A DNA stretch of 53,521 bases, from NCBI GenBank assembly GCA_016935415.1, contig JAFGRA010000307.1, forward strand, positions 1 to 53,521, written 5' to 3'. The position numbers and the translations under genes were made by a program. The DNA comes from Anaerolineales bacterium (GTDB lineage: Bacteria > Chloroflexota > Anaerolineae > Anaerolineales > UBA11579). Below, piece after piece: positions 4,771-46,850 of this stretch (the stretch's first letter is position 1; each line of letters opens with the position of its first letter). Below the pieces are notes generated by a model. It was not told the DNA's origin. It searched no databases and saw only the letters and a list, made by a program, of their open reading frames with translations.

Positions 4771-5331
4771 TCATTCATTAAACAATTGGGTCAGCCAGGG
4801 CAGAGAAAAGGCACCTGCACCGGCGTAGGCGATATAGGTCATTTTTGTGGTCACACCGATCCAAACCCAGATCAGGAATTTCCAGAGCGGCATTTTCAGC
4901 GCTCCGGCAGCGATGCCGGTAATATCAAATACTGGATTGGGAATGATGGAAAGACCAAGGATGGTGATGCCGCCGTGTTTCTTCATCCAACCTACACTAC
5001 GCTGGTAGATCTTGTAATCTTCGATGATGGCCTGGCCACTGAAACCGGCCAGATATCCTGAAATTTCCCCCAATGCGCCACCCAGGCCTCCGGCCAAACC
5101 GACGAAGAGTGGATTGAAACGCGCCCCCATAGCGAATACCACAAATAAGCCCGGTGCCGGGATCAACACTGTAGCATTCGAAAGAAATGCCAGCAGCGCG
5201 ATCCCGAAATAACCGAGGCCTTCTATTTTTTTTATTTCTGCATCCGAGAGCGTAAATACATACACCGACAGGCCAATAACGACCAGCAGGGCGATGATGC
5301 GGGCAATGATGAGGCGGCGCTCTTTGGACAT
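4771..5331 (-). CDS. DedA/VTT (SNARE-associated) membrane protein
   Basis: Hydrophobic; LIPAPG, GGALGEISGYLAG and IPNPVFDITGIAAG motifs. Confidence 0.82.
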   Translation of the reverse strand: MSKERRLIIARIIALLVVIGLSVYVFTLSDAEIKKIEGLGYFGIALLAFLSNATVLIPAPGLFVVFAMGARFNPLFVGLAGGLGGALGEISGYLAGFSGQAIIEDYKIYQRSVGWMKKHGGITILGLSIIPNPVFDITGIAAGALKMPLWKFLIWVWIGVTTKMTYIAYAGAGAFSLPWLTQLFNE

Positions 5332-5343
5332 TTTTAGGGCATG

Positions 5344-5856
5344 CTATGCTTCGATAATCTCAACCGATTGCAGGGTGACGGCAGGGCTGTTCACTTGGCT
5401 GGGATCGCGGGCTGGAATCTGGCGAAAAACTTCTTCACCTTCAACCAATTGGCCGAATACGCTGTGCTTTCCGTCCAGCCAGGGGGTGGCAATGTGGGTG
5501 ATGAAGAATTGGGACCCGTTGGTGCCAGGGCCGGCATTGGCCATGGAAAGTACGCCGCGCTTATCGTGTTTCAAGCTGGGATCGAATTCATCTCCAAAGC
5601 GATAGCCAGGGCCGCCCCTGCCGGTGCCGGTCGGGTCGCCACCCTGCACCATGAAATCATCGATCACGCGGTGGAAGATGGTACCATCATAAAAGCCTTC
5701 ACGCGCCAGAAAGACGAAATTGTTTACAGTCGTAGGGGTCTTATCGGCGAAGAGTTCGAGGGTGAATTCTCCCAGGTTAGTTTTCATAATGGCTTTGTAG
5801 CTTTTCTGGGGGTCGATGACCATATCAGGGGGGCTATTCCATTGTTTTTGTGACAT
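5344..5856 (-). CDS. Cyclophilin-type peptidyl-prolyl cis-trans isomerase
   Basis: [42 protein letters not shown]. Confidence 0.95.
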
Positions 5857-15087: not shown

Positions 15088-15621
15088 ATGTTGAAGTTTT
15101 CATGGCAAGAGGAATTGTGTCAAACATTGCAGTATCTGGAACGTGAAATCGGGCGTGCGCCACGCGTATGTGTGATTGGTACGGGCAGTGAAATGCGCGG
15201 CGATGATATCGCCGGATTGGATGTGGCCCGAGGGTTGTTGCATTGTCTTTGTGAGCATCCCGATACACCTTTTATGGTCATTGATGCCGGCGCGCAACCG
15301 GAAGATCATCTGAATAAGATTCGTGAATTCGATCCCGATTTTATTTTAATGGTCGATGCAGCTGACTTCCATGCCGAGCCTGGCAAGGTCAGTTGGGTTT
15401 CCTGGGAGACAGGACGCGGGTTTGATGCTACGCCACATACGCCGCGCACGGTCACCTTTGCACGTTACTTACATGAAGAAGTTAGCTGCCCGGTGGCATT
15501 GATCGCTATTCAACCTGAGCGTGTCAACTATAATCCCCCCTTGTCAAAACCGGTCTGGTTGGCGGTTGACCAGGTTGTGCACGGCATTGAGAAAGCCGTC
15601 CGGCCGATTGTCACTGCTTAG
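15088..15621 (+). CDS. Hydrogenase maturation protease (HycI-like)
   Basis: GTGSEMRGDDIAG, PE, MVDAA, PHT, IAIQP. Confidence 0.8.
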   Translation: MLKFSWQEELCQTLQYLEREIGRAPRVCVIGTGSEMRGDDIAGLDVARGLLHCLCEHPDTPFMVIDAGAQPEDHLNKIREFDPDFILMVDAADFHAEPGKVSWVSWETGRGFDATPHTPRTVTFARYLHEEVSCPVALIAIQPERVNYNPPLSKPVWLAVDQVVHGIEKAVRPIVTA

Positions 15622-17600
15622 TCGATAAAAGCCGACGCTTTCCGATTATCTCTTTCCCAATCAAGGCGCGACCAGTTTGCGTCTTTTTTTATTTCAACAA
15701 CCTGCGCCGGGAAATCGACCTGAGTATAGAGGTTATCGTAACGAGGAAATTCGTGCGTGCGGATTTCCTCTTTGTTTAACAGGTATGGCCCTTTCCAGCC
15801 AAATTCGAGGCGACCCTGAGCAGGGGATTGATAGCTGACGCGTAGCCCGTTGAATGATAAGGGGGCAGCGCAAATCGTTTTAACGAATGTCGAGAAATTT
15901 CCGTTTTCCTGTTGGGAACCGAGTTCGCAAATCCAGATATTTTGCTGCCCTTCGGCAATGATTTCCCGGTTATTATCCTCGCCCGCGGCTTGCTGCCAGG
16001 TATAAGGCCGCCGTGAATGCAAGGCCAGATAGCTGGTATCTTTGTGCGCGAAAATCCATCCTTTACGCTCGATAACTTCATCGAACTGATCTCTGGGCAG
16101 CCAGGCGTGTGTAAAGAATAATTGGTTGGTGACGTATAGACCGGGCGCGCGACTGAGATTGTAGATTGCAATGAGGACATTCTTGTGTTGGACGACACGG
16201 GGCAGTGTACCTGAACCCGTCCAGTAGTTGGGGGTTGGGCCATCCCGGCGCGGCGGATGGGTGGTAAAGCAGACCGCGTCTGGACCGAGGGTGGCCTGCC
16301 AGATATGCTGCTGGTCGCCGCCATAGCCGGGGCGATAATGCAGGGCGCTGCTTAGCATGTAGTCCGAGGTGCGGTAGGTGTAGATGTTGACTTCCTCGCG
16401 CGTATTGCGGCAAACGTCGCGTTCGAGCAGGCGCGCCAGCCAGGGTAAGAGGTCGAAGCGGCGAATTGTGTCGATCAGACGTTTATGATTGGCAAAATCT
16501 TTGAAGAATGCGTTTTCCCACCAGTTAAATTCGTCGAACATGCGCATGGTCAGGTTGGCGGTGTGTGGGTGCAGGTAGGCTTCCAGACTGAGCAAGACCA
16601 TGCCGTCTTCGAGGTTGTCGAATTTCAGTCCCCAACGTTTCGCTTCAGACACTTTGATGCCCATGCGCTGGCGGTTTTCGAAGGTGGCGGGTGTATTGGC
16701 GATGTCGAAGATCACCTGTGGCAGGCGGTAGTTTTCGCTCATCGCAAACAGCACCACGCTCATGTTGTCGTAGCCGGAAAATACACCAGTTCCAAATAAC
16801 AGCTTGGCGATGTCCGTGGTGCCTTCCAAGCGCGCCCATTTCTTATATTCTTCGTAACTGCGGCCATGTGTGCTGCCGAATACGCCTTTGAAACTGTTGA
16901 GCGCCATGTCGAAAAGTAGCAGGTCGACGATCATTTTCGCGCGTTGGCGGAGTTCTTCGTCGGCGGCGAAGTCCAGCAAGTTGAGCAGGGCAGCGAGGTC
17001 TTTGTCGTAATACACGTTGGAAAGCCATTCGCTGAAACCGGTTTTGAAGCGCAAATCCAGCCAGCGCAGGATGCGCGGACGACTGAGTTCTATTTTTTGC
17101 CTGCCGGTGTGGCCGGTGTTCGAAAAGACTTCATCTGGGTACATCTGGCCAACCAGGTAGGCGGCGGTAGCGAATAGAATCTGGTGGTTTTCTGTCCAGG
17201 TACACATGTCATCGCGTCCTGGCTCATCAGGCCAGTATTTGAAGCCTAAGATAGCTGTTTTGGCGTGCTCGCGTAATTCCTGGCTGAAATGTTCCGGAAT
17301 CTGGTAAAGCATGCGGATGATGGCGTGTAGGGCGAAATCGGCGCAGTCGGCACGGGCTTCGATGAACTCGGTCAGCGTTTCGTGGATGATACCTTCGTGG
17401 GGCGTGCCACCGGCGGCAGCACGGGCGACTTCGTAGTAGGCGCGCTTGCTGTTGTGTTCTGGAGCGGGATTATGCAGGATGTGTTGCCAGAAGGCCTCTC
17501 GGCGTTGCTCGAAGCTGGGCGCGAAAACGGTTGTCGAATACGTGTCGGGAGTTTCTTGTTTGGGATAATTGGCGGGTGGGTAGGTCGGATGATCGCTCAA
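15618..17600 (-). CDS. Hypothetical 660-aa soluble protein, possibly heparinase II/III- or polysaccharide-lyase-like
   Basis: Long ORF with helical N-half (WTENHQI, GFSEWLSNVYY, STHGRSY) and aromatic beta-rich C-half; no signal peptide. Confidence 0.7.
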   Translation of the reverse strand: MSDHPTYPPANYPKQETPDTYSTTVFAPSFEQRREAFWQHILHNPAPEHNSKRAYYEVARAAAGGTPHEGIIHETLTEFIEARADCADFALHAIIRMLYQIPEHFSQELREHAKTAILGFKYWPDEPGRDDMCTWTENHQILFATAAYLVGQMYPDEVFSNTGHTGRQKIELSRPRILRWLDLRFKTGFSEWLSNVYYDKDLAALLNLLDFAADEELRQRAKMIVDLLLFDMALNSFKGVFGSTHGRSYEEYKKWARLEGTTDIAKLLFGTGVFSGYDNMSVVLFAMSENYRLPQVIFDIANTPATFENRQRMGIKVSEAKRWGLKFDNLEDGMVLLSLEAYLHPHTANLTMRMFDEFNWWENAFFKDFANHKRLIDTIRRFDLLPWLARLLERDVCRNTREEVNIYTYRTSDYMLSSALHYRPGYGGDQQHIWQATLGPDAVCFTTHPPRRDGPTPNYWTGSGTLPRVVQHKNVLIAIYNLSRAPGLYVTNQLFFTHAWLPRDQFDEVIERKGWIFAHKDTSYLALHSRRPYTWQQAAGEDNNREIIAEGQQNIWICELGSQQENGNFSTFVKTICAAPLSFNGLRVSYQSPAQGRLEFGWKGPYLLNKEEIRTHEFPRYDNLYTQVDFPAQVVEIKKDANWSRLDWERDNRKASAFID

Positions 17601-17841
17601 GGTGCGGCTCCATTTGATGACAAAAAGAGGCTGTGTGGGCTACATAAAAATCATACTCGATTTTTGCTGGTTGGCAAGCACCAGGGAATAAACGCCCTGT
17701 ATTTTCAAGCACTCAGGTGCTTTTCCGGGCGTTCTTGGATGTGAACTGGATAGGCTGAAATCGTATATAATGGTTATTGGGTCGGTATGGTTTCGAAAAT
17801 TTGTTTTGCGTAATCCAACACGATCATGACCCAGAGGGTGT

Positions 17842-20800
17842 ATGCCTTGTCCGAAATGCAACCATTTAGAATATCAAGCGAATAAGCCCTGTCCTAACTG
17901 CAACTTCAGTGGGGATACAGATCAAATCGTCGAATTGACCCACATAAAGTGGATGCTGCGTGAAATCTATTCCTGGGAGCCAAATGAACTGCAAGCAGCA
18001 GAGCGGAGCGCGTTGGTATCCCGGTATACGACGCGCCTGCGAGAGCTTGAAATCCAATTGGGGTTGCGTGCCCGGCCTTTTGCGGCCGAAGAGGCGCCAC
18101 AGCGTTGGCAGGAATTGATCCGGCTGGAAGCATTTTTTAATTTGCTGACTACCTGGCAAAACGCCCACGCCCTGGATGCCAAATCCTCGCAAGCTTTACG
18201 GGGCGATATCTGGGCGCAGATCAAGGATTTGCGGAAGCGGTTGGAAGACTTCGAACGCCCGAAGTACCCAGAAACACAACAGGAGCAGCTTGAAGTCAAC
18301 ATTTTCCTGTTGGAGCAAATCCAACTGTACCAGGATGAGGGGAAACTCCATTTCCTGGATAGTAAAGTGTTGTCCGACCTGCATCAACAAAAGAAGGAAT
18401 TAGAGATCGCGCTGGGCTTGCAGTCTACGCCGGAAGAGAGCGGGGATAGTGTAGAAGAAATTGAAGTAGAGGCGCAGCCGGAACAAGTATATGAAGTCCC
18501 GGAAATAGCCGATATCATTCCGCCTCCGCCCAAGCTGCCGCTGCGCGAGCGCATTATGCGCTCGATGTTGTCCGAGCGAACGCTTCAAGCTGTGCTTTTC
18601 CTGGGTATCTTTTTGCTGTTCTCTGCGGCGCTTTCCTTTGTGATTTGGGGCTGGCAAAATTTTTCGGCAGCCGTACGGGTAGCAATCCCTATTGCCTTTA
18701 CGCTGGTATTCTTCCTGATTGGTTGGTACGTGCGCGAGAAAACACCGCTCAGTCGATCGGGGGTAGCGATCGAGGCGATTGCGGCGTTGTTGATCCCGAT
18801 TGACTTTTATACGGTTTATGCCAATTACGGTAACCCGCCGGATTATTGGTCTGAATTCTGGCTGTTGACTTCTGTTTTATGCTTGGGAGCCTATATACTT
18901 TTGACGTTGAACATCCAGAGTGAGTTCTTTGGGTATCTGGTGGTCACTGCGGCAGGCAGTGTGGTGCTTTCCACGATTGAAATCTTCGATCTGTCGCGCG
19001 ATTGGTATCCAGCCGGACTTTCGGTGTTGGCGGTGGTAGCATTGGTTATTGCCACGCTGCTCTCGCGGCGCCCAGAGCCGGGAGAGATGGATATATTTGC
19101 TGCCCCCTTCCGCTATATGGCGTTGCTGATCCCTGGTATCTTGATGCCGCTGACGCTGGGATGGCGTATGATCGACCGCAGTACATACGATTCATTGCAT
19201 TATGCAATGACGGCCAGTTGGCTGTTGGGTAGCTTGATCTTTGGTTGGGGGGCAATTTACCATCGCAGCCGCAGCCTGGGCTTGCTGGCCCCTACCGCAT
19301 TACCGATCTCGATCTATATGCTGCAGGGGGCGATCTTCGACGCCATCGGGACAAATCTGGCCTGGCAGGCTTTCGGAATCGCGCTGATCGTGCCGTATTA
19401 CTTCTATTCTGGGTGGTACCTATCCCAAAAAGATGATGCTGTGTTCCAAGGACATGGGCGGGTATTGAACGTGTGGGGGACGGTTTTGCTGATCGTGATG
19501 CCGTTTTGGGCGCTCACCGATCTGCGCAGCGGGGCAGCGGCGGCGAGCACACATGCAGTGCTGGCGGGGGCAGCAATCTTGGCCGCGGGGTTGTGGCAAC
19601 GCCCGCGGTATCTTTACGTGGCTTCGGTATTGGCTGCCAGTGCAACCAGCTTTTTTGTCAGCGAAATTGGGTTTACAACCAGTGAGGTGAGCGTTGGTTG
19701 GGCGTCCCTGGCGATACTACACGTTGTGACTGCTTTTTGGCTCGGCCGGACACATTTTAATGCAGGGAAACGCTTTATCACGCCGCTCGTGCGCGCCGGT
19801 TATGCGATCTCACTGCTGGCAATCCTGCTGGCGCTTGTGCAATATGATGGACAATTGCTATCGTATTCACTGGGGAACTGGATTCTGTTGACGATCTGGG
19901 GAGCTAGACTGGCCTATCTAAACGCTCCTGGATTTGCGACTGAGAAAGAGCGCTACCGCACGCGCTTCCACTGGCTTGCGGCGTTGGCTATGCCTTTCTG
20001 GTTGTGGGTAATTATCAACAACCAGCAGCCTGCTGATGAAGTCCTGCCGCTGGCATTGACCGGTTTAGCCTGGGGAATGGCGTTGGTCAGTTATCGTCTC
20101 AAAAAATTCGATCGGGCTTTCCATTTGCCCTGGTACTTGACTGGCTTGGTGGTTAATCATATTGCTGTGTTGGTAGCGATCGGAACACTCGGTTTCAGCT
20201 ATACGCTATCCTTCGTGGTGCTGGCGCTGGGCGGGTTGTTTTTGACGGATGCTTTTGCCGTTCACGTTTCGCGAGAACTTTTTCCGGGCGGATTGGTTGG
20301 CGTCGTCGGGCTAATCCTTTTGATGCATGAATTCGAATTGACGCGGGAAGAAATTGCCTTTGGTATCGGTGTGTTGGTAACGGTGTACTTCCTGTCCGGG
20401 TTGTTGATCGAACGCCTTAAGTCGCAAGTCTTCACGGGAGAGTTCTTAGTTCCTCTGTATGCCAGCGCGCATCTCTTGACTTTGGTCATATTGTTGATCC
20501 TTTATAGCCGTCCTCTCGATCAGTTTGTTTTCCGTGGCGAGTGGACGGATGCGATGCGTTTGTGGGGAGCGGGGACGCAGTTGGTATTGGGGATTATGTA
20601 TGGCTTTTTTGCCTGGGGTAAATATAAAGAAGTTTGGGGGCACGTTGCAGCCTGGTTGGGGGCAGCCGGAGGCGGATTCATCGCCATTATTCTGAGCAGC
20701 GGTAGCGGGCGTTCGGCGGTGATAGCTGCCGTTGTGGCAATCGTTTATGTGTTGGCGGAACGAGGACTGCATCATGGACGCCGCTTGCTGCGATTATCTG

Positions 20801-23625
20801 TTCGCTTGCGGGCGTACGACCGTCTGGCGTGGCACTTGTACAGGCGTCCATTATTGTTTGCAGGATGGGTGGTCTCGGCCGGGGCAATTGGCCTAGCGTT
20901 GGTACGCAACTTGTGGATATTAGGTGGGCAGCGTATCCAACAAACCTGGGCAGTGGTCTGCCTACTGCTGGTGGTGGCGCTTTATGCGCTCTCAGCACGC
21001 TTGTTCCGGCGAGCGCGCTTCGTGTGGTTGGCAGCGTTGGTGCTGTTTGTGCCCTGGACGATCCTGACTCGGATGGGCTGGTTTTTCAAGTGGCGTTTCT
21101 CTATTCCCGAATTCGCGATCAGTTGGGTCATGCTGGCCTGGTTGCTTTACGTCATCGGCCTGTATTTAAAGCCCAGGATTCAACCGAAATATGTGTTGCC
21201 GCTGAATGTTGTGACACAAGTGTTGCTTGTATTCGCGTTGTTCTGGGGTATCGCTGATGTGGATACCGGCAAATATAGTTTCGGATTGGCAATAGGTCTG
21301 TATGTGTTGGCTGCCTGGCTGGATTATAGAATGTTGGCGGGAGCGAATGAAAGTATGTCGGTTATAAAAGCGAGCCGGTATCTGTATCTGGCGTTGCTTT
21401 TGGTGCCGGTGTGGTGCGTGTATTTGCTGGCCTGGAGTCTCCCACAGGCACAGCACGAACTTTATGGGGTGATGTTTTTGGCGTTTGGCATAATAGGGGT
21501 GCTGGTCGGACGTTGGTTCCGGCGACGGAGAGCAGTATCTGAGCAATGCGAACGATACGCCCTACCAGCCTACCTGACCGGCTATTTGGCTTTGATCGTG
21601 GGTACGATGTTGGTCGCCCACATCCCTACCTTGCTGGCGTTTGGGCTGGTCTACGCTGCTCTGGTGATGCTTTTGTCGGCGCGCCTATTTCGCAACCCCG
21701 GCTGGGTATATCCCGCCGCGATTTTTCTTGCGCTGGCGCTGCTACTGGCGATGCATGAAGCCGAAATCGACGTCAATCGACAAGGTTGGGGATTGATCGC
21801 GCTGGCAGCCGTTTATCTGATGTTGGCCTGGCTGCTGCGCCGGGTGAAGCTACCTGCTTACGGCACGGCTTTGCTGGCGACCGGATTTGCATTGATCGCC
21901 TTTGGCCTGCCGCCATCCAGCCAAGATCAGGACGGCGCCTTGTGGGGATACGGCGCAGCAGCATTTTTATATGTGGTGAGTGCCTTTTGGCTGAGACAGC
22001 CGCTGCTGTTGACCCCGGCATGTGCGCTAGTGATAGTTCCTTATGCAATTGGTATCCAGAAATTAGAAATCTCCTCGGACTGGGTTGGCTTGAGCCTATA
22101 TCCGGGAGCGGTTGCAGCGCTGGTGGTGGCCTGGATGCTGGATAAGCACCAAGGGATGCCCAAGCAATTCCCGTGGAACGCTCCGGAAAAATGGCCGGTT
22201 GCGGTAGGGAATCGTTTCTTCGGTTGGTGGGGTTTGCCGCTATATATACTGGGGTTTGGCCTGGCAACCTTTAGCCCAATCTTCACCGCCGGACGAGATG
22301 ACCTGGTAGCCCTGAATTGTTTGCTGCTCATGCTGGTGTTTGCCTGGGCCGTTTACCGTTTCCGGTTGCGCGGCTGGCTGTTCGCCAGTGTTGCGGCGGG
22401 GCACCTGGCATACGCCTTCTTGCTGCGCTCGTGGGGCTGGTGGCGCTACCCAGTACATGCCTGGATGCATTTCCTGCCGGTGAGCGTATTGACAGCGTTG
22501 GCAGCTATCTGGGTGATGCGTAGGTTAGGCGAGAAATCGCCGCTGACGAAAGAGTATTGGCACGTGGGCTGGTCACGTCCATTGTTCTTGATCGCAGCTT
22601 TCGATATTTTGATCTCACAACTCGGCAGCCTGGCTCTCGCCGATGCGGCTGCGCTGATCACCTTGGTCAATGCTTTACTGATTGCTTTCTGGTCTTCGGC
22701 CCTGTACGCGCCCAATTTGCTTTACGCCAGCAGCATTCTAGGCCTGGTTTCGCTTGGGCAGTGGCTGATGTTCAAGTTGGAATCTTTGGAGCGGATCCTG
22801 CCGGCGTATGCCTTATTGACACTGGCGTACGCTGTGATTGGTTATGGCCTGACGTTGTTGAAGCGGGGGCGTGAGCATTCTGTACCGGGCTGGTTGGCGG
22901 CCTGGGAGAAACCATTCCAGTTAAGCAGCCGGGTGCTGTCATTCTTGTTACTTTTCTGTACGGCCGTTTTTGGTTTCCCCTTGGCGTATTGGAGTTTGCG
23001 AGCTGTCTTTGGATTCGCATTCCGCCACCTGGTCATCTTGGAAAAGGTGCGGATGGTGATCGAGGTTTTCTCCTTCATTGGGTTAGCCTACTTAGCTAGA
23101 GCGTTTGCTTACCGCCGTACGCGCCTGTCCTACTCTGCCAGCGGCTTGCTGCTGGTGAGCTGGTTGCTGTATGCCTTTTATATACAACAATGGGATAACC
23201 TTGCCAGGGTGCAGTGGTACGTGATCCCAACCGGGTTGTACATCCTGGGAGTGGCTTTCCTGGAATGGCGACAGGGAAACAAGACGCTGGCGCGCTGGCT
23301 GGACTATACTGCTATGCTGCTTATGCTGGGGTCGTTATTCCGGCAGACATTGGCGTTTGGATGGAGCTATGCCTTAATGCTTGGCCTTGAAGGTTTCCTC
23401 ACAATCTGGTGGGGCAGCGCCCGGCGGCTGCGGCGTTTTCTGTACGCCGGGATGGTCGGCGTGATTCTGGCGACCGTGGGACAACTTATCAACTCTTTGC
23501 AATCCATCAACCAGTGGATCACCTTTGGCATTATTGGTATTCTATTAGTGGTAGCAGCGATCTTCATCGAACGCCGTCTGGAGCAACTGAAAGCCTGGCA
23601 AGAATTATTGGAATCCTGGGAATAG
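17842..23625 (+). CDS. Giant polytopic membrane protein (zinc ribbon, DUF2157-like start, repeated TM hairpins, SCO7613-like C-terminus)
   Basis: 1927-aa uninterrupted ORF; N-terminal CPKC...CPNC; dozens of hydrophobic segments; C-terminal W-x-x-FGIIGILL...IERR. Confidence 0.85.
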   Translation: MPCPKCNHLEYQANKPCPNCNFSGDTDQIVELTHIKWMLREIYSWEPNELQAAERSALVSRYTTRLRELEIQLGLRARPFAAEEAPQRWQELIRLEAFFNLLTTWQNAHALDAKSSQALRGDIWAQIKDLRKRLEDFERPKYPETQQEQLEVNIFLLEQIQLYQDEGKLHFLDSKVLSDLHQQKKELEIALGLQSTPEESGDSVEEIEVEAQPEQVYEVPEIADIIPPPPKLPLRERIMRSMLSERTLQAVLFLGIFLLFSAALSFVIWGWQNFSAAVRVAIPIAFTLVFFLIGWYVREKTPLSRSGVAIEAIAALLIPIDFYTVYANYGNPPDYWSEFWLLTSVLCLGAYILLTLNIQSEFFGYLVVTAAGSVVLSTIEIFDLSRDWYPAGLSVLAVVALVIATLLSRRPEPGEMDIFAAPFRYMALLIPGILMPLTLGWRMIDRSTYDSLHYAMTASWLLGSLIFGWGAIYHRSRSLGLLAPTALPISIYMLQGAIFDAIGTNLAWQAFGIALIVPYYFYSGWYLSQKDDAVFQGHGRVLNVWGTVLLIVMPFWALTDLRSGAAAASTHAVLAGAAILAAGLWQRPRYLYVASVLAASATSFFVSEIGFTTSEVSVGWASLAILHVVTAFWLGRTHFNAGKRFITPLVRAGYAISLLAILLALVQYDGQLLSYSLGNWILLTIWGARLAYLNAPGFATEKERYRTRFHWLAALAMPFWLWVIINNQQPADEVLPLALTGLAWGMALVSYRLKKFDRAFHLPWYLTGLVVNHIAVLVAIGTLGFSYTLSFVVLALGGLFLTDAFAVHVSRELFPGGLVGVVGLILLMHEFELTREEIAFGIGVLVTVYFLSGLLIERLKSQVFTGEFLVPLYASAHLLTLVILLILYSRPLDQFVFRGEWTDAMRLWGAGTQLVLGIMYGFFAWGKYKEVWGHVAAWLGAAGGGFIAIILSSGSGRSAVIAAVVAIVYVLAERGLHHGRRLLRLSVRLRAYDRLAWHLYRRPLLFAGWVVSAGAIGLALVRNLWILGGQRIQQTWAVVCLLLVVALYALSARLFRRARFVWLAALVLFVPWTILTRMGWFFKWRFSIPEFAISWVMLAWLLYVIGLYLKPRIQPKYVLPLNVVTQVLLVFALFWGIADVDTGKYSFGLAIGLYVLAAWLDYRMLAGANESMSVIKASRYLYLALLLVPVWCVYLLAWSLPQAQHELYGVMFLAFGIIGVLVGRWFRRRRAVSEQCERYALPAYLTGYLALIVGTMLVAHIPTLLAFGLVYAALVMLLSARLFRNPGWVYPAAIFLALALLLAMHEAEIDVNRQGWGLIALAAVYLMLAWLLRRVKLPAYGTALLATGFALIAFGLPPSSQDQDGALWGYGAAAFLYVVSAFWLRQPLLLTPACALVIVPYAIGIQKLEISSDWVGLSLYPGAVAALVVAWMLDKHQGMPKQFPWNAPEKWPVAVGNRFFGWWGLPLYILGFGLATFSPIFTAGRDDLVALNCLLLMLVFAWAVYRFRLRGWLFASVAAGHLAYAFLLRSWGWWRYPVHAWMHFLPVSVLTALAAIWVMRRLGEKSPLTKEYWHVGWSRPLFLIAAFDILISQLGSLALADAAALITLVNALLIAFWSSALYAPNLLYASSILGLVSLGQWLMFKLESLERILPAYALLTLAYAVIGYGLTLLKRGREHSVPGWLAAWEKPFQLSSRVLSFLLLFCTAVFGFPLAYWSLRAVFGFAFRHLVILEKVRMVIEVFSFIGLAYLARAFAYRRTRLSYSASGLLLVSWLLYAFYIQQWDNLARVQWYVIPTGLYILGVAFLEWRQGNKTLARWLDYTAMLLMLGSLFRQTLAFGWSYALMLGLEGFLTIWWGSARRLRRFLYAGMVGVILATVGQLINSLQSINQWITFGIIGILLVVAAIFIERRLEQLKAWQELLESWE

Positions 23626-23628
23626 ACC

Positions 23629-24939
23629 ATGAGTGTTGAAACTGTGAAAGAAAAATCCATAAAGAACATGCCAGGTCAAATGCCTTTATGGCAAAAGCGC
23701 ACGATCAAGGTAATTGGCATACTGATGGCCATTGTGGGTCTTCCGGTGGGGGTTGCTTCTTTGTGCGTCGGTTTACTTTCGATTATCGATGGATCTACTG
23801 GTCAAGGTCTTGCCGTGCTTCTATTTGGATTGCTCGCGTTCGGTGGTGGATTATTAACCGCCTACCATGCAAATGCGTCAATTGACAAAAGGCCTTCCAA
23901 ACCGCTGAAGCTCCCCAAAGAATGGGTATTGGTGGGTGCGTTCGTTCTATTAGTCTATCTGGGGGTATTGATCTCTCCGGTTGGAGACGATGGTGTTGTG
24001 TTCGCGCCAGTCTTGATCGTGCTGGCGTTGCTGCCACCTACCTGGGCGATGGCGTGGTTCCGGCGCAATCAGCCGGATACGTTGACCGCACGGCGTGGGA
24101 TTGTAGCTTTGATCGGTGGGGCAACGGTTAGTGTGTTATTTGCCCTGCTGTTGGAAGTCCTCTTCCCAACGATCATCCTTTCATTGGTTTACGAGCTTTA
24201 CGGTTCGGTTTTGGTAAGTGTGCGGACGTTACTAAGAGAGTTAGCCTGGCGGGAGATCGCCAGGGCGCTCACCAGTCCCGGCTTTATCTTCGCATTCGTT
24301 CACCTGGCGATCGTGGCACCGCTGGCAGAGGAGCTTGCCAAGCCACTGGTTACCTTGCCGGTGATTGGATATCTATCCAAACGGGAAGCATTCCTGGTTG
24401 GGGCGATGGCCGGGATTGGCTTTGCGGCAGTGGAGAATGTGCTCTACGCTGGGTTTGGTTTTTCCTTCTGGGCGGGTATCCTGGTAGTGCGCGCTTTGGG
24501 TGGCGCGATCCACCCGTTGGGTTCGGGGTTGGTAGCCGCGGGGTGGCAGGGAGTTCTCCGTCGTGAAAAGGATGCGCTGCGCAAGTGGTTGAGTTATTTT
24601 GGACTGGCAGTCGGAATCCACGCGCTATGGAACGGTGGTTCGCTTTTGGTGATCACGTTGGCAGGTGCGCAATTCTTTGGAGATTTACCGCCCGAGATCG
24701 ATGTGCTGGGACTGTCGGCGGGTGGCACGACTCTGGCATTTTTGATTGTCTTGGGGTTAGCGGCATTGTGGTTGGGTGAAGCGATATTCAAAACCGAGGG
24801 CTCAGATTCTGAGCGAGATGCCGACGTGATGGAAGAATTGTTCATGGTGTCGGACCGGGCGATGGCGATCTGGGCGTTTGCTTGCCTGGTTGCCTTTGTA
24901 CCAGCCGGGATCGCTGGGTTACAACTAATTTTGCGGTGA
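23629..24939 (+). CDS. PrsW-family intramembrane metalloprotease
   Basis: All four family motifs: EELAK, FAAVEN, AIH, HALWN. Confidence 0.88.
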   Translation: MSVETVKEKSIKNMPGQMPLWQKRTIKVIGILMAIVGLPVGVASLCVGLLSIIDGSTGQGLAVLLFGLLAFGGGLLTAYHANASIDKRPSKPLKLPKEWVLVGAFVLLVYLGVLISPVGDDGVVFAPVLIVLALLPPTWAMAWFRRNQPDTLTARRGIVALIGGATVSVLFALLLEVLFPTIILSLVYELYGSVLVSVRTLLRELAWREIARALTSPGFIFAFVHLAIVAPLAEELAKPLVTLPVIGYLSKREAFLVGAMAGIGFAAVENVLYAGFGFSFWAGILVVRALGGAIHPLGSGLVAAGWQGVLRREKDALRKWLSYFGLAVGIHALWNGGSLLVITLAGAQFFGDLPPEIDVLGLSAGGTTLAFLIVLGLAALWLGEAIFKTEGSDSERDADVMEELFMVSDRAMAIWAFACLVAFVPAGIAGLQLILR

Positions 24940-24954
24940 TGGTGAAAAGCGGTT

Positions 24955-25512
24955 ATGAAGGCACCTAAGTTTTTACGTAAGCTGAATATCAACACGCTGT
25001 TCGTGGTGATCCTAATCGTCGCTAACCTTTTTACCTGGCTGCGGTTGCTGCTGGCCATGCCGGAACCATACCTAGTCGACCCGGTGCGCGATCCCGAAGT
25101 GGTCGCTTTGCTCGAGTATATCCGTTCTGGAGAGCATTCAGGCGAGGAGTGGGTGGTGCACTTGACTGAGGAAGAGGCCGAGCAGACGATTGCCTGGTAC
25201 TTGAATCGCTACCCGCAAATCCCGTTTGCGCATCCACACGTGGAAATCACGTCCGATTATGTATTTGGCGAAGGCGACGCGACAATCACCGGATTGCGTG
25301 TGCATGTAAGTGGCAAGGCCAGTGTAACCTTGGAAAACGGCTTACCCAAGGTCGAAATTTTAGAATTAAGCCTGCCGCTGCCGCGACCAATCCGACAGGC
25401 ATTAGAACAGGAAATTGACAGGCAACTCCAACGCGCCGATTTGCTGCCGGTGCGTTTTACGTCAGCGGAATGGCATGATGGCGAAGTGATCGTTGAGGGG
25501 ATTATTCGATAA
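24955..25512 (+). CDS. Hypothetical membrane-anchored protein (DUF2140/LmeA-like lipid-binding fold possible)
   Basis: Single N-terminal TM, then a helix/beta-strand domain (LTEEE...VSGKASVTLENG.P.V...LPLP). Confidence 0.7.
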   Translation: MKAPKFLRKLNINTLFVVILIVANLFTWLRLLLAMPEPYLVDPVRDPEVVALLEYIRSGEHSGEEWVVHLTEEEAEQTIAWYLNRYPQIPFAHPHVEITSDYVFGEGDATITGLRVHVSGKASVTLENGLPKVEILELSLPLPRPIRQALEQEIDRQLQRADLLPVRFTSAEWHDGEVIVEGIIR

Positions 25513-25663
25513 TTGCAGCAGTTATCTTGATGAACTGGCAGAAGTGAGATAAATTAATAGGGACGATATAGGCCAGCAGGTTGCTGGTGGTTTTTAGTTT
25601 TGGCTGGCAATTGCTTGCTGGTGTTCAATTTATTCAACATTGGTAGTACAAAAGGAGAAGATC

Positions 25664-41052: not shown

Positions 41053-42873
41053 GTGAACAAGAAAATTAGTCTAGTCTTTGCGTTAATTATGATTTTAAGC
41101 CTGGTGCTCTCGGCCTGTGCAGCGCCGGAACCCGAGACCATCATTGAGACGGTAGTGGTTGAGCGGGGAAGTGAGACCGTGATTGAAACCGTTGTTGTCG
41201 AAGTTCCTCAGGAAGAAGATATGGGGGAAATGGATCAGCCGGTGACTTACGACGGCTATTCGACTACGGATATCCCCACGCTCGACCCGCAGGTTGGAGA
41301 GGATAAGGTCTCGATCGACTATATTGAGAACCTGTTCGTGCAATTGACCAATTACGATTTGGTTACCAATGAAATTGTGCCGGAAGCTGCTACCAATTGG
41401 TCGGTAAGCGAAGATGGCCTGGTTTGGACGTTTAATTTGCGTACCGACATTCCCTGGGTTTACCATGTGCCTGGCGGAGGGACAACCCAAGACGTAGACG
41501 TTGATGGTAATCTGCTTTTCGTTAACGCAGGCGATTTTGAATATGGTATCAAGCGCGCTTGTGATCCGAATATTGGCTCTGCCTATTCTGCGATCATTGC
41601 GCCGCTCATCAAGGGCTGTAATGATGTGTTGAATTATGAAGATCCGGCGAATGTTCCCCCAGAGATGTATGATGCGATTGGGGTCAGCGCGCAAGCGGAT
41701 GATACCCTGGTCGTGGAACTTGAATTCCCGGCCGGATATTTCCTGTCCATGACCCCGATGTGGACGCTGGCGGCAGTGCCGCAGTGGGTAATTGAAGAGC
41801 ATGGCGAGCAATGGGTCGAGGCTGGTTTTGTGGTGACCAGCGGGCGATATGTGCTTGACGAATGGGTGCATGGTGTTCGCCGCCGTATTGTTCGTAATCC
41901 TTTGATGCCTGCCGATATGATTGGCAGCGGCAATATCGAAGCATACGATGTTAATGTTGTTCCAGATACGAGCACCGGTTATGCATTGTGGTTGAATAAT
42001 GAAGTTGATGTGGCCGGGATCCCGGATGCCGAATTGCAAGCCCATCTCGAGCAATTCCCGGATGAGACCGTTCAAATTGCTAATCTGACGGTGTATTACA
42101 TCGGTTTTCGCATGACCAAGCCGCCGTTCGATGACGCGCGCGTGCGCCGGGCGTTCAGCGCTGCTTTCGACCGCGAAACCTATGTCGATGTCATCAACCA
42201 GGGACAAGGTTTGCCGATGAAGCACTTTGCCCCTCCAGGGATTTTTGGCGCACCGCCGATTGATGAAGTGGGGGTAGGCTTCGACCCTGAATTTGCTGCT
42301 GCGCAGTTGGCCGAAGCGGGATATCCAAACTGTGAAGGTTTCCCCACGGTTACGCTCTTGGGATATTCCGGGCAGAATACATTGAATGAGATCGAATATG
42401 CGCAGGGGCAGTGGTCTGAAAACCTGGGTTGTGATCCGGAGAAGATCATCATCGAGCAGCAATCATTCGCCGAACTGCTGGATTCGACCTCTGTGGATAC
42501 CCCGGATGAAGATGCCCCACATATGTGGACACTGGGTTGGGGACCGGACTATGCCGATGAAAATAACTGGGTCGGTGATGTGTTGTGGTGTGAGGGCGAT
42601 GTGCGCTTCAAGCGCACCTGCAACGACATCGACGATCTGATCGAGCAAGCCCGCATCGAATCTGATCCGGCAGTACGGGCTGACCTATATTACCAGATCG
42701 AAGAGATGTTCTTCGGCGCAGAAGGCGAGTTCCCCTTCATGCCCACCGATTTGAATATCAACTATGCTGCTGAACATACCTGGGTCGAACGCATTGTGGC
42801 CTTGTTTGGTGGGGAACAATGGTACAACTGGTCGATAGATTGGGAGGCTAAACTGGCCGCTCTTGGTGAGTGA
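41053..42873 (+). CDS. OppA-like ABC substrate-binding lipoprotein (family 5), copy 1
   Basis: Lipobox LSAC, TLDPQ, SEDGLVWTFNLR, PFDDARVRRAFS, GWGPDY. Confidence 0.9.
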   Translation: MNKKISLVFALIMILSLVLSACAAPEPETIIETVVVERGSETVIETVVVEVPQEEDMGEMDQPVTYDGYSTTDIPTLDPQVGEDKVSIDYIENLFVQLTNYDLVTNEIVPEAATNWSVSEDGLVWTFNLRTDIPWVYHVPGGGTTQDVDVDGNLLFVNAGDFEYGIKRACDPNIGSAYSAIIAPLIKGCNDVLNYEDPANVPPEMYDAIGVSAQADDTLVVELEFPAGYFLSMTPMWTLAAVPQWVIEEHGEQWVEAGFVVTSGRYVLDEWVHGVRRRIVRNPLMPADMIGSGNIEAYDVNVVPDTSTGYALWLNNEVDVAGIPDAELQAHLEQFPDETVQIANLTVYYIGFRMTKPPFDDARVRRAFSAAFDRETYVDVINQGQGLPMKHFAPPGIFGAPPIDEVGVGFDPEFAAAQLAEAGYPNCEGFPTVTLLGYSGQNTLNEIEYAQGQWSENLGCDPEKIIIEQQSFAELLDSTSVDTPDEDAPHMWTLGWGPDYADENNWVGDVLWCEGDVRFKRTCNDIDDLIEQARIESDPAVRADLYYQIEEMFFGAEGEFPFMPTDLNINYAAEHTWVERIVALFGGEQWYNWSIDWEAKLAALGE

Positions 42874-45278: not shown

Positions 45279-46841
45279 GTGTATATAAAATATGAAGGTG
45301 TCTTACTGATCAAAGAAAAACGAGTTGAAAATAATGTTATGGCCTGGTTAGCTGACCGAAAAATCATTCCCGTACACCAACTGCGCTGGAAGCTCACCCT
45401 GAGTTATACCGCAGTCACGGTGGGTGTGTTGCTGGTGATAGAACTGATCGTGATCGCTGGTGTGTTTGCCTACTTTATTTCCAACGCCAGGTTGTCGCCG
45501 GAAGGCGTGCTCCAGGAATTGAACAGCGGCTGGGTGCCGCTTGCCCAGCCTTACCTTTCCGAAGACCCGCCGGATATTGAAGGGTTGCAAAATTTCCTGC
45601 AGCAGTTCTTAGGCTCCCAGGTGGATACCGACCCGCTGGTGATCACCGGAAGTTTAGAACTGGAATTGAAAAGTTATAACTTCTTGAGTGTGATTTTCGT
45701 CGATGCTGAAGGGAATCCAGTTGGCGCAATCCCGCATGATATTCTTGAGGGTTCTGACGAAACATCATTGTTTGGGCTGGAAGCTGTGGCGGGATTGGAA
45801 GGTCATTTGCAATTGGCCCTGGAAGGTGAACGCGATAGCTCTCAGTTGTATTCCGTCCAGGAACCGGATAATCGCGTGGTTGGTGCGATCCCAATTTATC
45901 ACGAAAACGATGCCTCAAAAGTGGTGGGTGCGCTGGTGTTTACGACCAAGTCGATTCCCTGGGGGCTGCTGCCGATCAAGGAGATCATTCGCCAATTCGG
46001 GTATAGCTTTTTGATCATTACGCTGGCCGTTGGTTTGTTGGGTACGGCTTTTGGTTCGCTCACGGCCAGGAGTCTGGTGAAACGCTTGCATAATTTGTCC
46101 GATTCTGCGCGCGCCTGGAGCCAGGGCGATTTCTCGATTTCGGTAGATGATGCAGCGGAGGATGAATTGGGCCTTTTGGCCCAGGATTTGAACAGTATGG
46201 CTGGCCAGTTGGAAGACTTGCTCAATAAGCGCGAGGAAATGTCCATAATCGAGGAGCGCAGCCGCCTGGCGCGTGACCTGCATGACAGCGTCAAGCAGCA
46301 AGCTTTCGCAGCGTCGGCTCAACTTGGGGCTGCAATTGCGCGCCTGAAAAATGATCCGACCTCCGCAGAGACGCATGTGGTCGAAGCCGAACGTTTGGTG
46401 TATGAAGTGCGCCAGGAACTGACTGATTTGATCCGTGAACTGCATCCGGTGGCCTTGAAGGACAGTAGCTTAGCCCCGGCGATTCGGGAATATGCCGGCG
46501 ACTGGGCGGCACAAAAAGATATTGAAATCGATGTGCAGGTGAAAGGGGAACGGCCGTTGTCGGTCGAGATCGAACAAGCCTTGTTCAGGATTGCCCAGGA
46601 AGCACTCGCTAATATTGCCCGGCACAGCGAGGCGAAGCGGGTAGGTATTTGCTTGTACTATCAAAAAAGTGAAGTATTGCTGAAAATAGAGGATGATGGC
46701 ATTGGCTTCGAACCGCTTTCAGCCAACGGCGGCTTGGGCCTGCGTTCGATGCGAGAGCGCTGTGAATTGTTAGGCGGCAACATAACTATCGAAAGTGCAC
46801 CTGGGAACGGTACCTGTATCCAGGCGCGTTGTGTAATCTAG
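45279..46841 (+). CDS. Membrane sensor histidine kinase (HAMP, HisKA_3)
   Basis: Two TMs, DELG, ERSRLARDLHDSVKQ, QEALANIARHS, DDGIGF, GLGL; start uncertain (possibly 45339). Confidence 0.92.
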   Translation: MYIKYEGVLLIKEKRVENNVMAWLADRKIIPVHQLRWKLTLSYTAVTVGVLLVIELIVIAGVFAYFISNARLSPEGVLQELNSGWVPLAQPYLSEDPPDIEGLQNFLQQFLGSQVDTDPLVITGSLELELKSYNFLSVIFVDAEGNPVGAIPHDILEGSDETSLFGLEAVAGLEGHLQLALEGERDSSQLYSVQEPDNRVVGAIPIYHENDASKVVGALVFTTKSIPWGLLPIKEIIRQFGYSFLIITLAVGLLGTAFGSLTARSLVKRLHNLSDSARAWSQGDFSISVDDAAEDELGLLAQDLNSMAGQLEDLLNKREEMSIIEERSRLARDLHDSVKQQAFAASAQLGAAIARLKNDPTSAETHVVEAERLVYEVRQELTDLIRELHPVALKDSSLAPAIREYAGDWAAQKDIEIDVQVKGERPLSVEIEQALFRIAQEALANIARHSEAKRVGICLYYQKSEVLLKIEDDGIGFEPLSANGGLGLRSMRERCELLGGNITIESAPGNGTCIQARCVI

Positions 46842-46850
46842 GATATAAAA

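What the first reader, a model, noticed from the sequence alone, without database searches (positions are those of the whole stretch)
17842..25512. Three-gene envelope module: giant repeat membrane protein, PrsW protease and anchored protein
Seen: three co-oriented genes with 3-nt and 15-nt gaps, a TATAAT at 17766-17771 upstream, and intact PrsW motifs (EELAK, FAAVEN, H, HALWN). The protease has an unusually long multi-TM N-terminal extension. Known: B. subtilis PrsW performs site-1 cleavage of the anti-sigma RsiW. No ECF sigma/anti-sigma pair lies next to this operon. Inference: this may be an undescribed intramembrane-proteolysis or lipid-handling system. The 1927-aa protein, with a cytoplasmic Zn ribbon and helical head, would be the sensor/scaffold or substrate, and the third protein a partner outside the membrane.
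Basis: partly seen in the sequence, partly recalled or inferred. Interest (0 to 1): 0.75.

Follow-up and report, generated by a model that had tools for sequence, protein, structure and literature searches.

The report
Giant membrane protein, PrsW, LmeA-like operon
A conserved three-gene operon of some Chloroflexota encodes a 1927-residue membrane protein built from repeated four-helix units, a membrane protease and a small lipid-binding-type protein; the three clearly belong together, but what they do is still unknown.

Summary
Three co-oriented ORFs (17842-23625, 23629-24939, 24955-25512) lie 3 and 15 nt apart, the PrsW motifs are intact, and no sigma factor was found among the 40 window ORFs scanned. 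The TATAAT is no more frequent than chance.

Gene 3 is a distant LmeA-like/TULIP protein, a lipid-binding fold, behind one N-terminal membrane helix. The giant has a Zn-ribbon head, a DUF2157 (LiaI-LiaF-TM) unit, about 11 tandem repeats of roughly 105 residues (four helices each) and an SCO7613-type C-terminus. AlphaFold models its last 928 residues confidently as a helical-hairpin array. No convincing solved relative was found.

Synteny is strong. Of 62 informative metagenome loci anchored on gene 3, 52 have PrsW directly upstream, 8 have the giant directly upstream with no PrsW, and 2 have neither. Two genomes carry the order small-giant-PrsW. Five genomes have giant plus PrsW but no LmeA-like gene. 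Both small genes therefore track the giant, which looks like the hub.

No binding or cleavage is shown. My best guess, from the mycobacterial LmeA-MptA precedent, is an envelope lipid or stress module with a dedicated protease. The scan had already flagged this operon on another genome.

The parts
17842..23625 (+). Giant polytopic membrane protein (1927 aa), the hub of the module
   Evidence: Open frame. At least 44 TM helices by hydropathy. At least 136 homologue clusters of about 1900-2000 aa.
17842..18561 (+). Cytoplasmic head, residues 1-240: Zn ribbon (CxxC-x10-CxxC, residues 3-20) plus a helical region with two '...ELExxLGL...' units
   Evidence: Sequence. Cysteines conserved in at least 90% of homologues. 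No Pfam family.
18574..18966 (+). DUF2157 / LiaI-LiaF-TM-type multi-TM unit (residues 245-375), the most conserved block
   Evidence: PF09925 at E 2.4e-8, 34.3 bits against a cut-off of 32.4, when residues 1-353 are scanned alone. Conservation profile. DUF2157 is unified with LiaI-LiaF-TM in PMC11237479 (passages).
19219..22851 (+). Array of about 11 tandem repeats of roughly 105 residues, four helices each (residues about 460-1670)
   Evidence: hhalign self-matches up to 96.5% probability and E 7e-10, at offsets of about 101-108, 222-228, 329-340, 470-476 and 698-701 residues. AF2 gives closely packed helical hairpins.
23068..23613 (+). SCO7613-type C-terminal domain (residues 1743-1924)
   Evidence: NCBIfam NF047321 at E 8.6e-17, 61.4 bits against a cut-off of 45. 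Same place in the genome search.
23629..24939 (+). PrsW-family intramembrane metalloprotease (436 aa). The core is residues 169-340 (24133-24648), with extra TM helices on both sides.
24955..25512 (+). LmeA-like/TULIP-fold protein (185 aa). N-terminal TM helix at residues 15-33 (24997-25053); ectodomain at about residues 46-185.
   Evidence: PF11209 matches 5 of 31 family members, best E 2.5e-6, though not this protein itself. AF2 pLDDT 86. Top fold matches are CETP, YceB, BPI and other TULIP members.
25572..25598 (+). Terminator-like hairpin with a T-rich tail, 60 nt after the last stop codon; a possible operon end
   Evidence: Consensus scan only. Such sites were found 21 times against 11.4 expected in the region, so this is weak evidence.
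17766..17771 (+). TATAAT hexamer, not shown to be a promoter
   Evidence: Present. Not above chance. No -35 partner called.

Best explanation
SHOWN: this is a self-contained, conserved three-gene membrane module of a subset of Chloroflexota. Its hub is a roughly 1900-residue protein with a cytoplasmic Zn-ribbon head, a DUF2157/LiaI-LiaF-TM unit, a variable-length array of four-helix transmembrane repeats and an SCO7613-type C-terminus. Two accessory genes travel with the hub: a PrsW-family protease with intact catalytic motifs, and a small protein with one N-terminal membrane helix and an LmeA-like/TULIP ectodomain.

INFERRED mechanism: the module handles envelope lipid or envelope stress. The TULIP protein binds a membrane lipid or lipoglycan at the outer face and docks on the hub, keeping it stable or loaded. 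This follows the mycobacterial precedent in which LmeA maintains the polytopic enzyme MptA under stress. PrsW acts as the hub's dedicated protease, for turnover or regulated cleavage when that state is disturbed, rather than as a switch for a sigma factor.
For: Synteny in genomes: the order giant-PrsW-small is found in 2 of 3 loci from the genome-collection scan and in six loci from my phylum sample of genomes (4 of one genus, 2 of another family). Giant identity there is 38-53%.

Synteny in metagenomes: 80 contigs were anchored on the small gene, and 62 had at least 300 bp upstream. Of these, 52 have PrsW directly upstream: 26 also show the giant next to PrsW (one, L060, is a degenerate remnant), 2 have an extra ORF in between, 23 contigs end too early to tell, and 1 has another protein upstream. 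A further 8 have the giant directly upstream without PrsW, and 2 have neither.

Gene order: it is shuffled to small-giant-PrsW in two genomes, with all three genes kept. Flanking genes are not conserved between loci. A congener keeps the giant at the same locus.

Hub logic: giant plus PrsW without an LmeA-like gene occurs in G251, G325, G007, G015 and G045. Giant plus small gene without PrsW occurs in 9 loci. PrsW plus small gene without the giant occurs only once (L047).

Gene 3 is TULIP-like. The PrsW motifs are invariant.

Precedent: LmeA carries a TULIP domain, binds phospholipid and keeps MptA from declining under stress. The authors suggest MptA is degraded without it (PMC7643837, abstract and passages).

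DUF2157 is linked to the envelope-stress LiaI/LiaF proteins (PMC11237479, passages).
Against: No physical interaction, cleavage site, lipid ligand or expression data support any step of the mechanism.

P0003 itself does not reach any Pfam threshold. The LmeA link rests on 5 of 31 relatives plus fold matches of middling Z (7.3 or lower).

The wider SCO7613_CTERM family mostly stands alone. Of 54 phylum-sample genomes with the domain, only 11 have this PrsW type next door and only 9 have the LmeA-like gene. The hub therefore has a function that needs neither partner.

The module is patchy: the small gene was found in 14 of 401 sampled Chloroflexota genomes and in 1 of 61 close relatives, some of them incomplete.

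The giant has no enzyme or transporter signature, so 'lipid handling' is carried by gene 3 alone.
Confidence: 0.4

Rival explanations
1. Regulated-proteolysis signalling without a sigma factor. The repeat array senses a membrane or envelope disturbance, PrsW makes a site-1-type cut in the giant, and the cytoplasmic Zn-ribbon head is eventually released as the signal. This would parallel RsiW cleavage in Bacillus subtilis.
For: PrsW's one characterised role is site-1 cleavage of an anti-sigma factor (PMC3482391, passage). The giant has a conserved 240-residue cytoplasmic head with a Zn ribbon. It also has a DUF2157/LiaI-LiaF-TM unit that others call sensory. The same paper notes PrsW fused to Zn-ribbon and other signalling domains.
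Against: No sigma factor or DNA-binding protein lies in the module or among the 40 window ORFs scanned. None appears next to the homologous loci examined. The head matches no anti-sigma or DNA-binding family. PrsW is absent from 8 of 62 informative loci. Releasing a head that sits in front of at least 44 TM helices would need a cut close to the first helix, and nothing points to one.
Confidence: 0.15
2. Lipid export with protease maturation. The giant is a lipid conduit or scramblase. PrsW cuts the membrane helix off the LmeA-like protein, releasing a soluble lipid carrier into the wall space.
For: PrsW and the small gene abut, with gaps of 3-15 nt in many loci. The small protein has RsiW-like topology, with one helix and the bulk outside. 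Mycobacterial LmeA is periplasmic (PMC7643837 abstract).
Against: Five genomes keep giant plus PrsW with no LmeA-like gene nearby. Nine loci keep the small gene without PrsW. Processing the small protein therefore cannot be PrsW's only job, nor a requirement for the small protein. No transporter or scramblase family matched the giant.
Confidence: 0.15
3. The genes are neighbours with loosely related or independent membrane functions, for example general membrane-protein quality control by PrsW, and form no specific complex.
For: Each pair can occur without the third gene. PrsW genes are common, found in 239 of 401 sampled genomes and often in several copies. The own genome has a second PrsW in another context.
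Against: The same PrsW subfamily, with its extension, follows giants that are only 23-26% identical to this one. The trio also survives a gene-order change.
Confidence: 0.1
4. A PrsW-dependent toxin-export, bacteriocin-immunity or anti-phage module.
For: PrsW domains process and export polymorphic toxins in some bacteria (PMC3482391, passages).
Against: No toxin or immunity domain is present and PrsW is not fused to anything. No PADLOC model matched any of the three proteins. There are no variable C-terminal cassettes. Composition matches the flanks, and a congener has the giant at the same chromosomal place.
Confidence: 0.03

Closest known systems
Bacillus subtilis PrsW - RsiW - sigma-W regulated intramembrane proteolysis
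   Same: Same protease family (PF13367) with all four catalytic motifs intact. It is membrane-embedded and associated with envelope stress.
   Different: No ECF sigma or anti-sigma factor in the window. The protease carries four extra N-terminal and two extra C-terminal predicted helices. Its conserved partner is a giant polytopic protein, not a single-pass anti-sigma factor. The substrate is unknown.
Mycobacterial LmeA (PF11209), which maintains the polytopic mannosyltransferase MptA
   Same: A small envelope protein with a TULIP-type lipid-binding fold, genetically tied to a large polytopic membrane protein. The precedent involves client stability under stress.
   Different: Only a distant relative: P0003 itself scores below Pfam thresholds. 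It has about 140 residues of ectodomain. The client is not a GT-C glycosyltransferase by any test run here. A dedicated protease gene is part of the operon.
SCO7613 C-terminal domain membrane proteins (NCBIfam NF047321) and DUF2157 / LiaI-LiaF-TM proteins
   Same: The giant carries both signatures above or at their cut-offs. NCBI already names some homologues this way.
   Different: Most family members in the phylum sample are 840-1700 aa and stand alone, without PrsW or an LmeA-like gene. The Streptomyces prototype is reported at 81.9 kDa. It has only a disputed, indirect link to PHA accumulation (PMC8313934: abstract, sections 3.1 and 3.4). No Toastrack or PspA partner was seen in this window.
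Piezo-type blades of tandem four-helix transmembrane units (recalled from the literature; not retrieved here)
   Same: A very large membrane protein made of many tandem four-helix TM repeats, which predicts an extended intramembrane array.
   Different: No sequence or fold match to Piezo was obtained; it was not among the top 50 fold matches. There is no pore module and the organism is bacterial. The resemblance is architectural only.
PrsW-dependent polymorphic toxin processing (Zhang et al. 2012, PMC3482391)
   Same: A PrsW peptidase proposed to process a partner protein at the membrane.
   Different: In those systems PrsW is fused N-terminally to toxin domains or RHS repeats. Here it is a separate gene and no toxin domain is present.

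Membership tests
PrsW family intramembrane metalloprotease (PF13367) | Match to the family profile above the curated cut-off | tested here: met
   52.2 bits against 23.5, residues 169-340.
PrsW family intramembrane metalloprotease (PF13367) | Four conserved motifs (EExxK, FxxxEN, H, HxxxN) inside membrane helices. The motif spelling is recalled. 'Four conserved motifs' is stated in PMC3482391. | tested here: met
   EELAK 234-238, FAAVEN 265-270, H295 and HALWN 331-335. All are invariant or at least 90% conserved in 15 homologues.
PrsW family intramembrane metalloprotease (PF13367) | Proteolytic activity on a membrane substrate | not testable with these tools
   Needs a biochemical or genetic assay.
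PrsW/RsiW/sigma-W type regulated proteolysis system | An ECF sigma factor and a single-pass anti-sigma substrate associated with the protease | tested here: not met
   No Sigma70 domain in the 40 window ORFs scanned. The homologous loci examined share no flanking genes. By my recollection, prsW is not adjacent to sigW-rsiW in B. subtilis either, so absence from the neighbourhood is not decisive.
LmeA-like phospholipid-binding family (PF11209) | Match to the family profile | tested here: inconclusive
   P0003 itself has no match at E up to 1. Of 31 aligned family members, 5 match, best E 2.5e-6. A protein-atlas lead points the same way.
LmeA-like phospholipid-binding family (PF11209) | TULIP-type fold: a long helix wrapped by a curved sheet | tested here: met
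   AF2 pLDDT 86. VIA-align: CETP Z 7.3 (rmsd 4.3, 130 aligned), YceB 6.7, BPI 6.2, then Takeout, P47, Mmm1, JHBP, OrfX and E-Syt2; TULIP-type lipid binders fill 11 of the top 14 rows. Foldseek top hits are BPI, CETP, LBP and YceB. The Z values are middling.
LmeA-like phospholipid-binding family (PF11209) | Extracytoplasmic location and lipid binding | not testable with these tools
   Topology is only predicted: a K/R-rich N-terminus followed by one helix. Lipid binding needs an assay.
SCO7613 C-terminal domain membrane proteins (NF047321) | Match to the domain profile above the curated cut-off, at the C-terminus of a large polytopic protein | tested here: met
   61.4 bits against 45, residues 1743-1924. 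67.9 bits in the genome search.
DUF2157 / LiaI-LiaF-TM | Match to PF09925 | tested here: inconclusive
   No hit with the whole protein. 34.3 bits against a cut-off of 32.4 when residues 1-353 are scanned alone.
DUF2157 / LiaI-LiaF-TM | Association with Toastrack, PspA/LiaH or a LiaRS-type two-component system | tested here: not met
   None of these was found within 8 kb of the module. A HisKA_3 kinase and a REC-GerE regulator lie 20 kb away at 45279-47504, with no evidence of linkage.
Piezo-like four-helix-repeat blade (architecture, not homology) | Tandem four-helix transmembrane repeats | tested here: met
   Self-matches at offsets of about 105 residues and its multiples, up to 96.5% probability. 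The helix pattern of the AF2 model agrees.
Piezo-like four-helix-repeat blade (architecture, not homology) | Structural similarity to solved Piezo blades | tested here: inconclusive
   Not among the 50 rows shown. The top rows are designed helical repeats and TPR solenoids, Z 13.9 or lower. The model has 928 residues, and the tool warns that matches of single domains can be missed at that size.

The most novel reading that the evidence does not exclude
The giant is a transmembrane alpha-solenoid: a long blade or fence of about 11 or more four-helix repeats lying in the plane of the membrane. Its length varies between lineages by whole repeats. It would sense or organise membrane curvature, tension or a lipid domain, as a bacterial analogue of Piezo-type blades. 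The TULIP protein would read or feed lipid at its outer face, and PrsW would reset it by cleavage. That would be a new kind of envelope-surveillance device and a new membrane-protein architecture.
Probability: 0.12. Interest if true: 0.85.

Novelty: new variant of a known kind. Interest (0 to 1): 0.6.

Why it matters
PrsW proteases are widespread, found in 239 of 401 sampled Chloroflexota genomes, yet only one substrate is understood: an anti-sigma factor in Bacillus. This operon offers a PrsW with a conserved, genetically defined partner set and no sigma factor. It is therefore a clean system for asking what else these proteases do.

The operon also ties an LmeA-type lipid-binding protein to a polytopic client outside the mycobacteria. 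In addition, it supplies a confidently modelled giant membrane protein made of four-helix repeats with no convincing solved relative.

If the parts do act together, this would be a new route by which monoderm-like filamentous bacteria watch or maintain their envelope.

Tried and rejected
- Complex prediction, PrsW with the small protein: no verdict (score 0.01 against a mark of 0.32). This counts neither for nor against binding. The giant is too long to include.
- Fused forms of the small protein, search of longer proteins: none found among 1654 candidates; weak evidence. Giants of about 2320 aa looked like possible PrsW fusions but are internal duplications of roughly residues 793-1249.
- BLAST of the giant against itself: nothing. 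Three first hhalign probes were weak. Only the sliding-window run showed the repeats.
- Distant loci L006 and L007: the roughly 240-aa ORFs between giant and PrsW are not LmeA-like by my HMM and have no significant Pfam family. In L005 the ORF in that position is a 627-aa Reg_prop propeller protein.
- Neighbours of stand-alone SCO7613-type genes: only housekeeping genes, with no functional hint.
- PDB sequence searches with the LmeA-like and PrsW profiles: only spurious hits, mostly antibody light chains.
- Fold searches of the giant's C-terminal model: only soluble TPR or designed helical repeats, plus one ESX-3 chain at Z 10.4. No convincing relative.
- PADLOC: no match.
- PF13367 phylum search: 263 matches were left unlisted, so adjacency could not be computed from it. 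I fetched the SCO7613 loci instead.
- First metagenome scan with the broad alignment failed because the alignment was too diverse. It was repeated with a closer alignment.
- Expression: no RNA holder was listed. Laid contigs from two metatranscriptome libraries touch only small parts of the stretch and cannot show transcription.
- SCO7613 as a PHA synthase (PMC8313934; abstract and sections 3.1 and 3.4 read): the authors themselves call the effect probably indirect. I did not use it.
- Literature searches for prior description: 'SCO7613' (2 papers), 'DUF2157' (2), 'PrsW'+'Chloroflexi' (4) and 'LmeA'+'phospholipid' (30; one listed). None describes this trio. The supplementary tables of PMC11237479 and PMC3482391 were not opened and might list such architectures.
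Full report
**1. What is in the window**

Three ORFs on the + strand occupy 17842-23625 (1927 aa), 23629-24939 (436 aa) and 24955-25512 (185 aa), with gaps of 3 and 15 nt. G+C content (0.53-0.54) matches the flanks. The flanking genes are unrelated metabolic genes: a HycI-type protease, short-chain dehydrogenase, aldo-keto reductase, APH-type kinase and sugar-acid enzymes. A 660-aa ORF with no Pfam family lies divergently upstream. No Sigma70 domain occurs in the 40 window ORFs scanned.

The TATAAT at 17766-17771 is real. The hexamer occurs 19 times in the window against 17.2 expected, and no -35 partner was called. A terminator-like hairpin with a T-rich tail lies 60 nt after the third stop codon. 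That is weak evidence, because such sites are common in the region.

**2. The protease**

Gene 2 matches Pfam PrsW (PF13367) at 52.2 bits against a cut-off of 23.5, over residues 169-340. The motifs EELAK, FAAVEN, H295 and HALWN are present. Across 15 homologues down to 26% identity, E234, E235, K238, A266, E269, H295, H331, W334 and N335 are invariant. Hydropathy predicts four helices before the core and two after it. These regions align across the subfamily, with L135, P136 and G164 invariant.

The own genome holds a second, distant PrsW on another contig. It lies between a DsbA-cyclophilin fusion gene and a VTT/DedA gene, which is a different context.

**3. The small protein is LmeA-like**

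P0003 has no Pfam or NCBIfam hit of its own. It does have 487 homologues at E<=0.001, the top 120 being 65-91% identical. All are unnamed or 'hypothetical', and those with a label come from Anaerolineae, Caldilineae or Chloroflexota MAGs.

A protein-atlas lead pointed to LmeA. When I scanned each of the 31 members of an alignment that includes distant relatives, PF11209 (LmeA-like phospholipid-binding) matched 5, best E 2.5e-6.

AlphaFold gave a confident model (pLDDT 86). It has an N-terminal helix (residues 12-33) followed by an alpha/beta domain.
- Foldseek against the PDB ranked BPI, CETP, fibrillin, LBP and YceB on top.
- The Foldseek-independent aligner ranked CETP (Z 7.3), YceB (6.7), BPI (6.2), a carotenoid-binding protein, Takeout, P47, Mmm1, JHBP, OrfX proteins and E-Syt2. 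TULIP-type lipid binders fill 11 of the first 14 rows.

The Z values are middling, but the agreement with the sequence lead is good. The K/R-rich N-terminus followed by one helix predicts that the domain faces outward. I could not tell whether the helix is a permanent anchor or a cleaved signal peptide.

**4. The giant**

- Residues 3-20 form a CxxC-x10-CxxC Zn ribbon, with each Cys conserved in at least 90% of homologues.
- Residues up to about 240 are a charged helical head with two '...ELExxLGL...' units and no known family.
- From residue 245 the protein is almost entirely membrane helices with very short loops. A crude hydropathy scan finds 44.
- AlphaFold finds 31 helices of 17 residues or more in the last 928 residues alone, where hydropathy found 24. 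The true number is therefore probably above 50.
- Scanned in pieces, residues 245-375 match DUF2157 (34.3 bits against 32.4). A published analysis unifies DUF2157 with the four-helix LiaI-LiaF-TM 'sensory' domain of the Lia/Psp envelope-stress systems (PMC11237479, passages).
- Residues 1743-1924 match NCBIfam NF047321, 'SCO7613 C-terminal domain' (61.4 bits against 45).

BLAST self-comparison is blank. A sliding profile-profile comparison, however, shows many internal matches between residues about 460 and 1670. They reach 96.5% probability (E 7e-10), and offsets cluster at about 101-108, 222-228, 329-340, 470-476 and 698-701 residues. This is a tandem repeat of roughly 105 residues, or four helices.

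Some homologues of about 2320 aa carry an internal duplication of roughly 450 residues. Linked relatives of 1450-1520 aa have fewer repeats. The array length therefore varies by whole units.

AlphaFold modelled residues 1000-1927 with mean pLDDT 84.6 and pTM 0.67. Foldseek found no PDB match at E<=0.001, and its best rows were soluble TPR solenoids at TM-score 0.1-0.15. The wide aligner returned designed helical repeats, toroids and TPR proteins (Z 13.9 or lower) and one membrane chain, from ESX-3, at Z 10.4. The model therefore looks like an array of helical hairpins with no convincing solved relative. I could not inspect the coordinates, so its overall shape is unknown to me.

**5. Synteny**

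Two Anaerolineales MAGs have giant-PrsW-small. One Caldilineaceae MAG has the giant followed directly by the small gene, with no PrsW within the 4 kb upstream or 6 kb downstream that were held.

*Phylum sample.* In 401 Chloroflexota genomes the small gene was found in 14. Four genomes of one genus and two of another family carry the trio in the same order, with giant identity of 47% and 38-39%. Two more genomes carry small-giant(about 1490 aa)-PrsW. The remaining matches are weaker LmeA-like genes in other contexts.

*Close relatives.* Among 61 close relatives the small gene was found only in the window's own genome. A 67%-complete congener nevertheless has the giant (79% identity over residues 1-1293, where the contig ends) beside the same 660-aa neighbour. 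That blank is therefore partly an assembly effect. Three other relatives (G007, G015, G045) have a PrsW of this subfamily (30-32% identity by BLASTP) behind a large SCO7613-type protein, with no LmeA-like gene.

*Metagenome contigs.* Of 80 contigs anchored on the small gene, 18 had under 300 bp upstream. The other 62 divide as follows:

| Arrangement upstream of the small gene | Loci |
|---|---|
| Giant-PrsW-small, contiguous (one, L060, is a degenerate remnant) | 26 |
| Giant, an extra ORF of about 1.2 kb, then PrsW (L099, L110) | 2 |
| PrsW, with the contig ending before a giant could be seen (includes L043, rescued by HMM) | 23 |
| PrsW behind a different 841-aa membrane protein (L047) | 1 |
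| Giant directly upstream, no PrsW | 8 |
| Neither (L088, L093) | 2 |

The window's flanking genes were essentially never found at these loci. The one exception is an aldo-keto reductase hit.

**6. The hub argument**

The SCO7613 C-terminal domain occurs in 54 of the 401 sampled genomes, always in large frames of 840-2285 aa, apart from one 388-aa frame in G307. I examined all 54 loci: nine earlier, and 45 fetched and scanned with my own HMMs. Some contigs ended early, and seven distant loci did not match my giant HMM.

This PrsW subfamily lies next to the giant in 11 of the 54, and the LmeA-like gene in 9. A 1200-aa form common in one family (21 of 25 genomes) stands alone.

Three combinations therefore exist: all three genes, giant plus PrsW, and giant plus small gene. 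PrsW plus small gene without a giant was seen once. Both accessory genes track the giant. That is what one expects if each acts on or with the giant, and not if PrsW existed only to process the small protein.

**7. Mechanism**

The shown facts stop at the points above. For mechanism I lean on the one studied LmeA. In Mycobacterium smegmatis this periplasmic TULIP-domain, phospholipid-binding protein is induced by stress. It keeps the polytopic mannosyltransferase MptA from declining post-transcriptionally, and the authors suggest that MptA is degraded without it (PMC7643837; abstract and discussion passages).

Here a polytopic client, an LmeA-like partner and a membrane protease are encoded together. 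The simplest reading is a client-stability or turnover circuit at the outer face of the membrane, tied to lipid or envelope state. I give this 0.4.

The rivals are signalling by release of the Zn-ribbon head (0.15), maturation of the small protein plus lipid export (0.15), no specific cooperation (0.1) and a toxin or defence role (0.03). The reasons are set out in the Rival explanations section.

**8. Novelty**

All three families are already named in Pfam or NCBIfam, and some homologues are annotated accordingly. My four literature searches found no paper describing the trio. The supplementary tables of two comparative-genomics papers were not opened.

This scan had already reported the giant-PrsW operon on another genome, with function unknown. 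This report adds:
- the identity of the third gene;
- the hub pattern of gene presence and absence;
- the DUF2157 / LiaI-LiaF-TM link;
- a confident model of the repeat array.

I rate it a new variant of a known kind, namely a PrsW-centred envelope module without a sigma factor. Interest is 0.6.

Noticed in passing
window 15618-17600 (-): A 660-aa ORF with no Pfam family and no predicted TM helix lies divergently upstream of the giant. It is 85-89% identical in a congener, where it again sits next to the giant. It is absent from all other homologous loci, so it is probably not part of the module.
   Followed up: partly
G000:C379 (L008 6434-9849) and window 4771-5856: The genome's second PrsW gene sits between a DsbA-cyclophilin fusion gene and a VTT/DedA gene. 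The window itself has a VTT/DedA gene next to a cyclophilin gene. This may be a recurring envelope-folding or lipid neighbourhood.
   Followed up: no
proteins P0149, P0169, P0185, P0197, P0204 (giant homologues of about 2320 aa): These carry an internal duplication of roughly 450 residues, aligning to about residues 793-1249 of the window's protein. That is about four extra four-helix repeats.
   Followed up: partly
L099 4356-4949 and L110 6649-7677: Two metagenome loci have an extra ORF (197 aa and 342 aa) inserted between the giant and PrsW. Neither matches my three HMMs.
   Followed up: partly
L060 9359-10534; L047 6074-10537: L060 keeps only a 104-aa N-terminal piece of the giant and a C-terminal piece of PrsW in front of an intact small gene, so it is a decayed locus. 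L047 has PrsW and the small gene behind an unrelated 841-aa membrane protein.
   Followed up: partly
window 17749-17930: A 181-nt contig from a metatranscriptome library of the study that may be the source of this DNA covers the stretch from just upstream of the TATAAT into the start of the giant gene. DNA carry-over cannot be excluded, so transcription is not shown.
   Followed up: no
window 41053-42873 and 43324-45144: Two adjacent 606-aa family-5 solute-binding protein genes of identical length look like a tandem duplication. They lie next to a GH94 phosphorylase gene and a HisKA_3/REC-GerE two-component pair.
   Followed up: no
L005 3831-5714: In one relative (G015) a 627-aa protein with Reg_prop beta-propeller repeats sits between the large SCO7613-type protein and the PrsW homologue, in the place where the window has nothing.
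   Followed up: no
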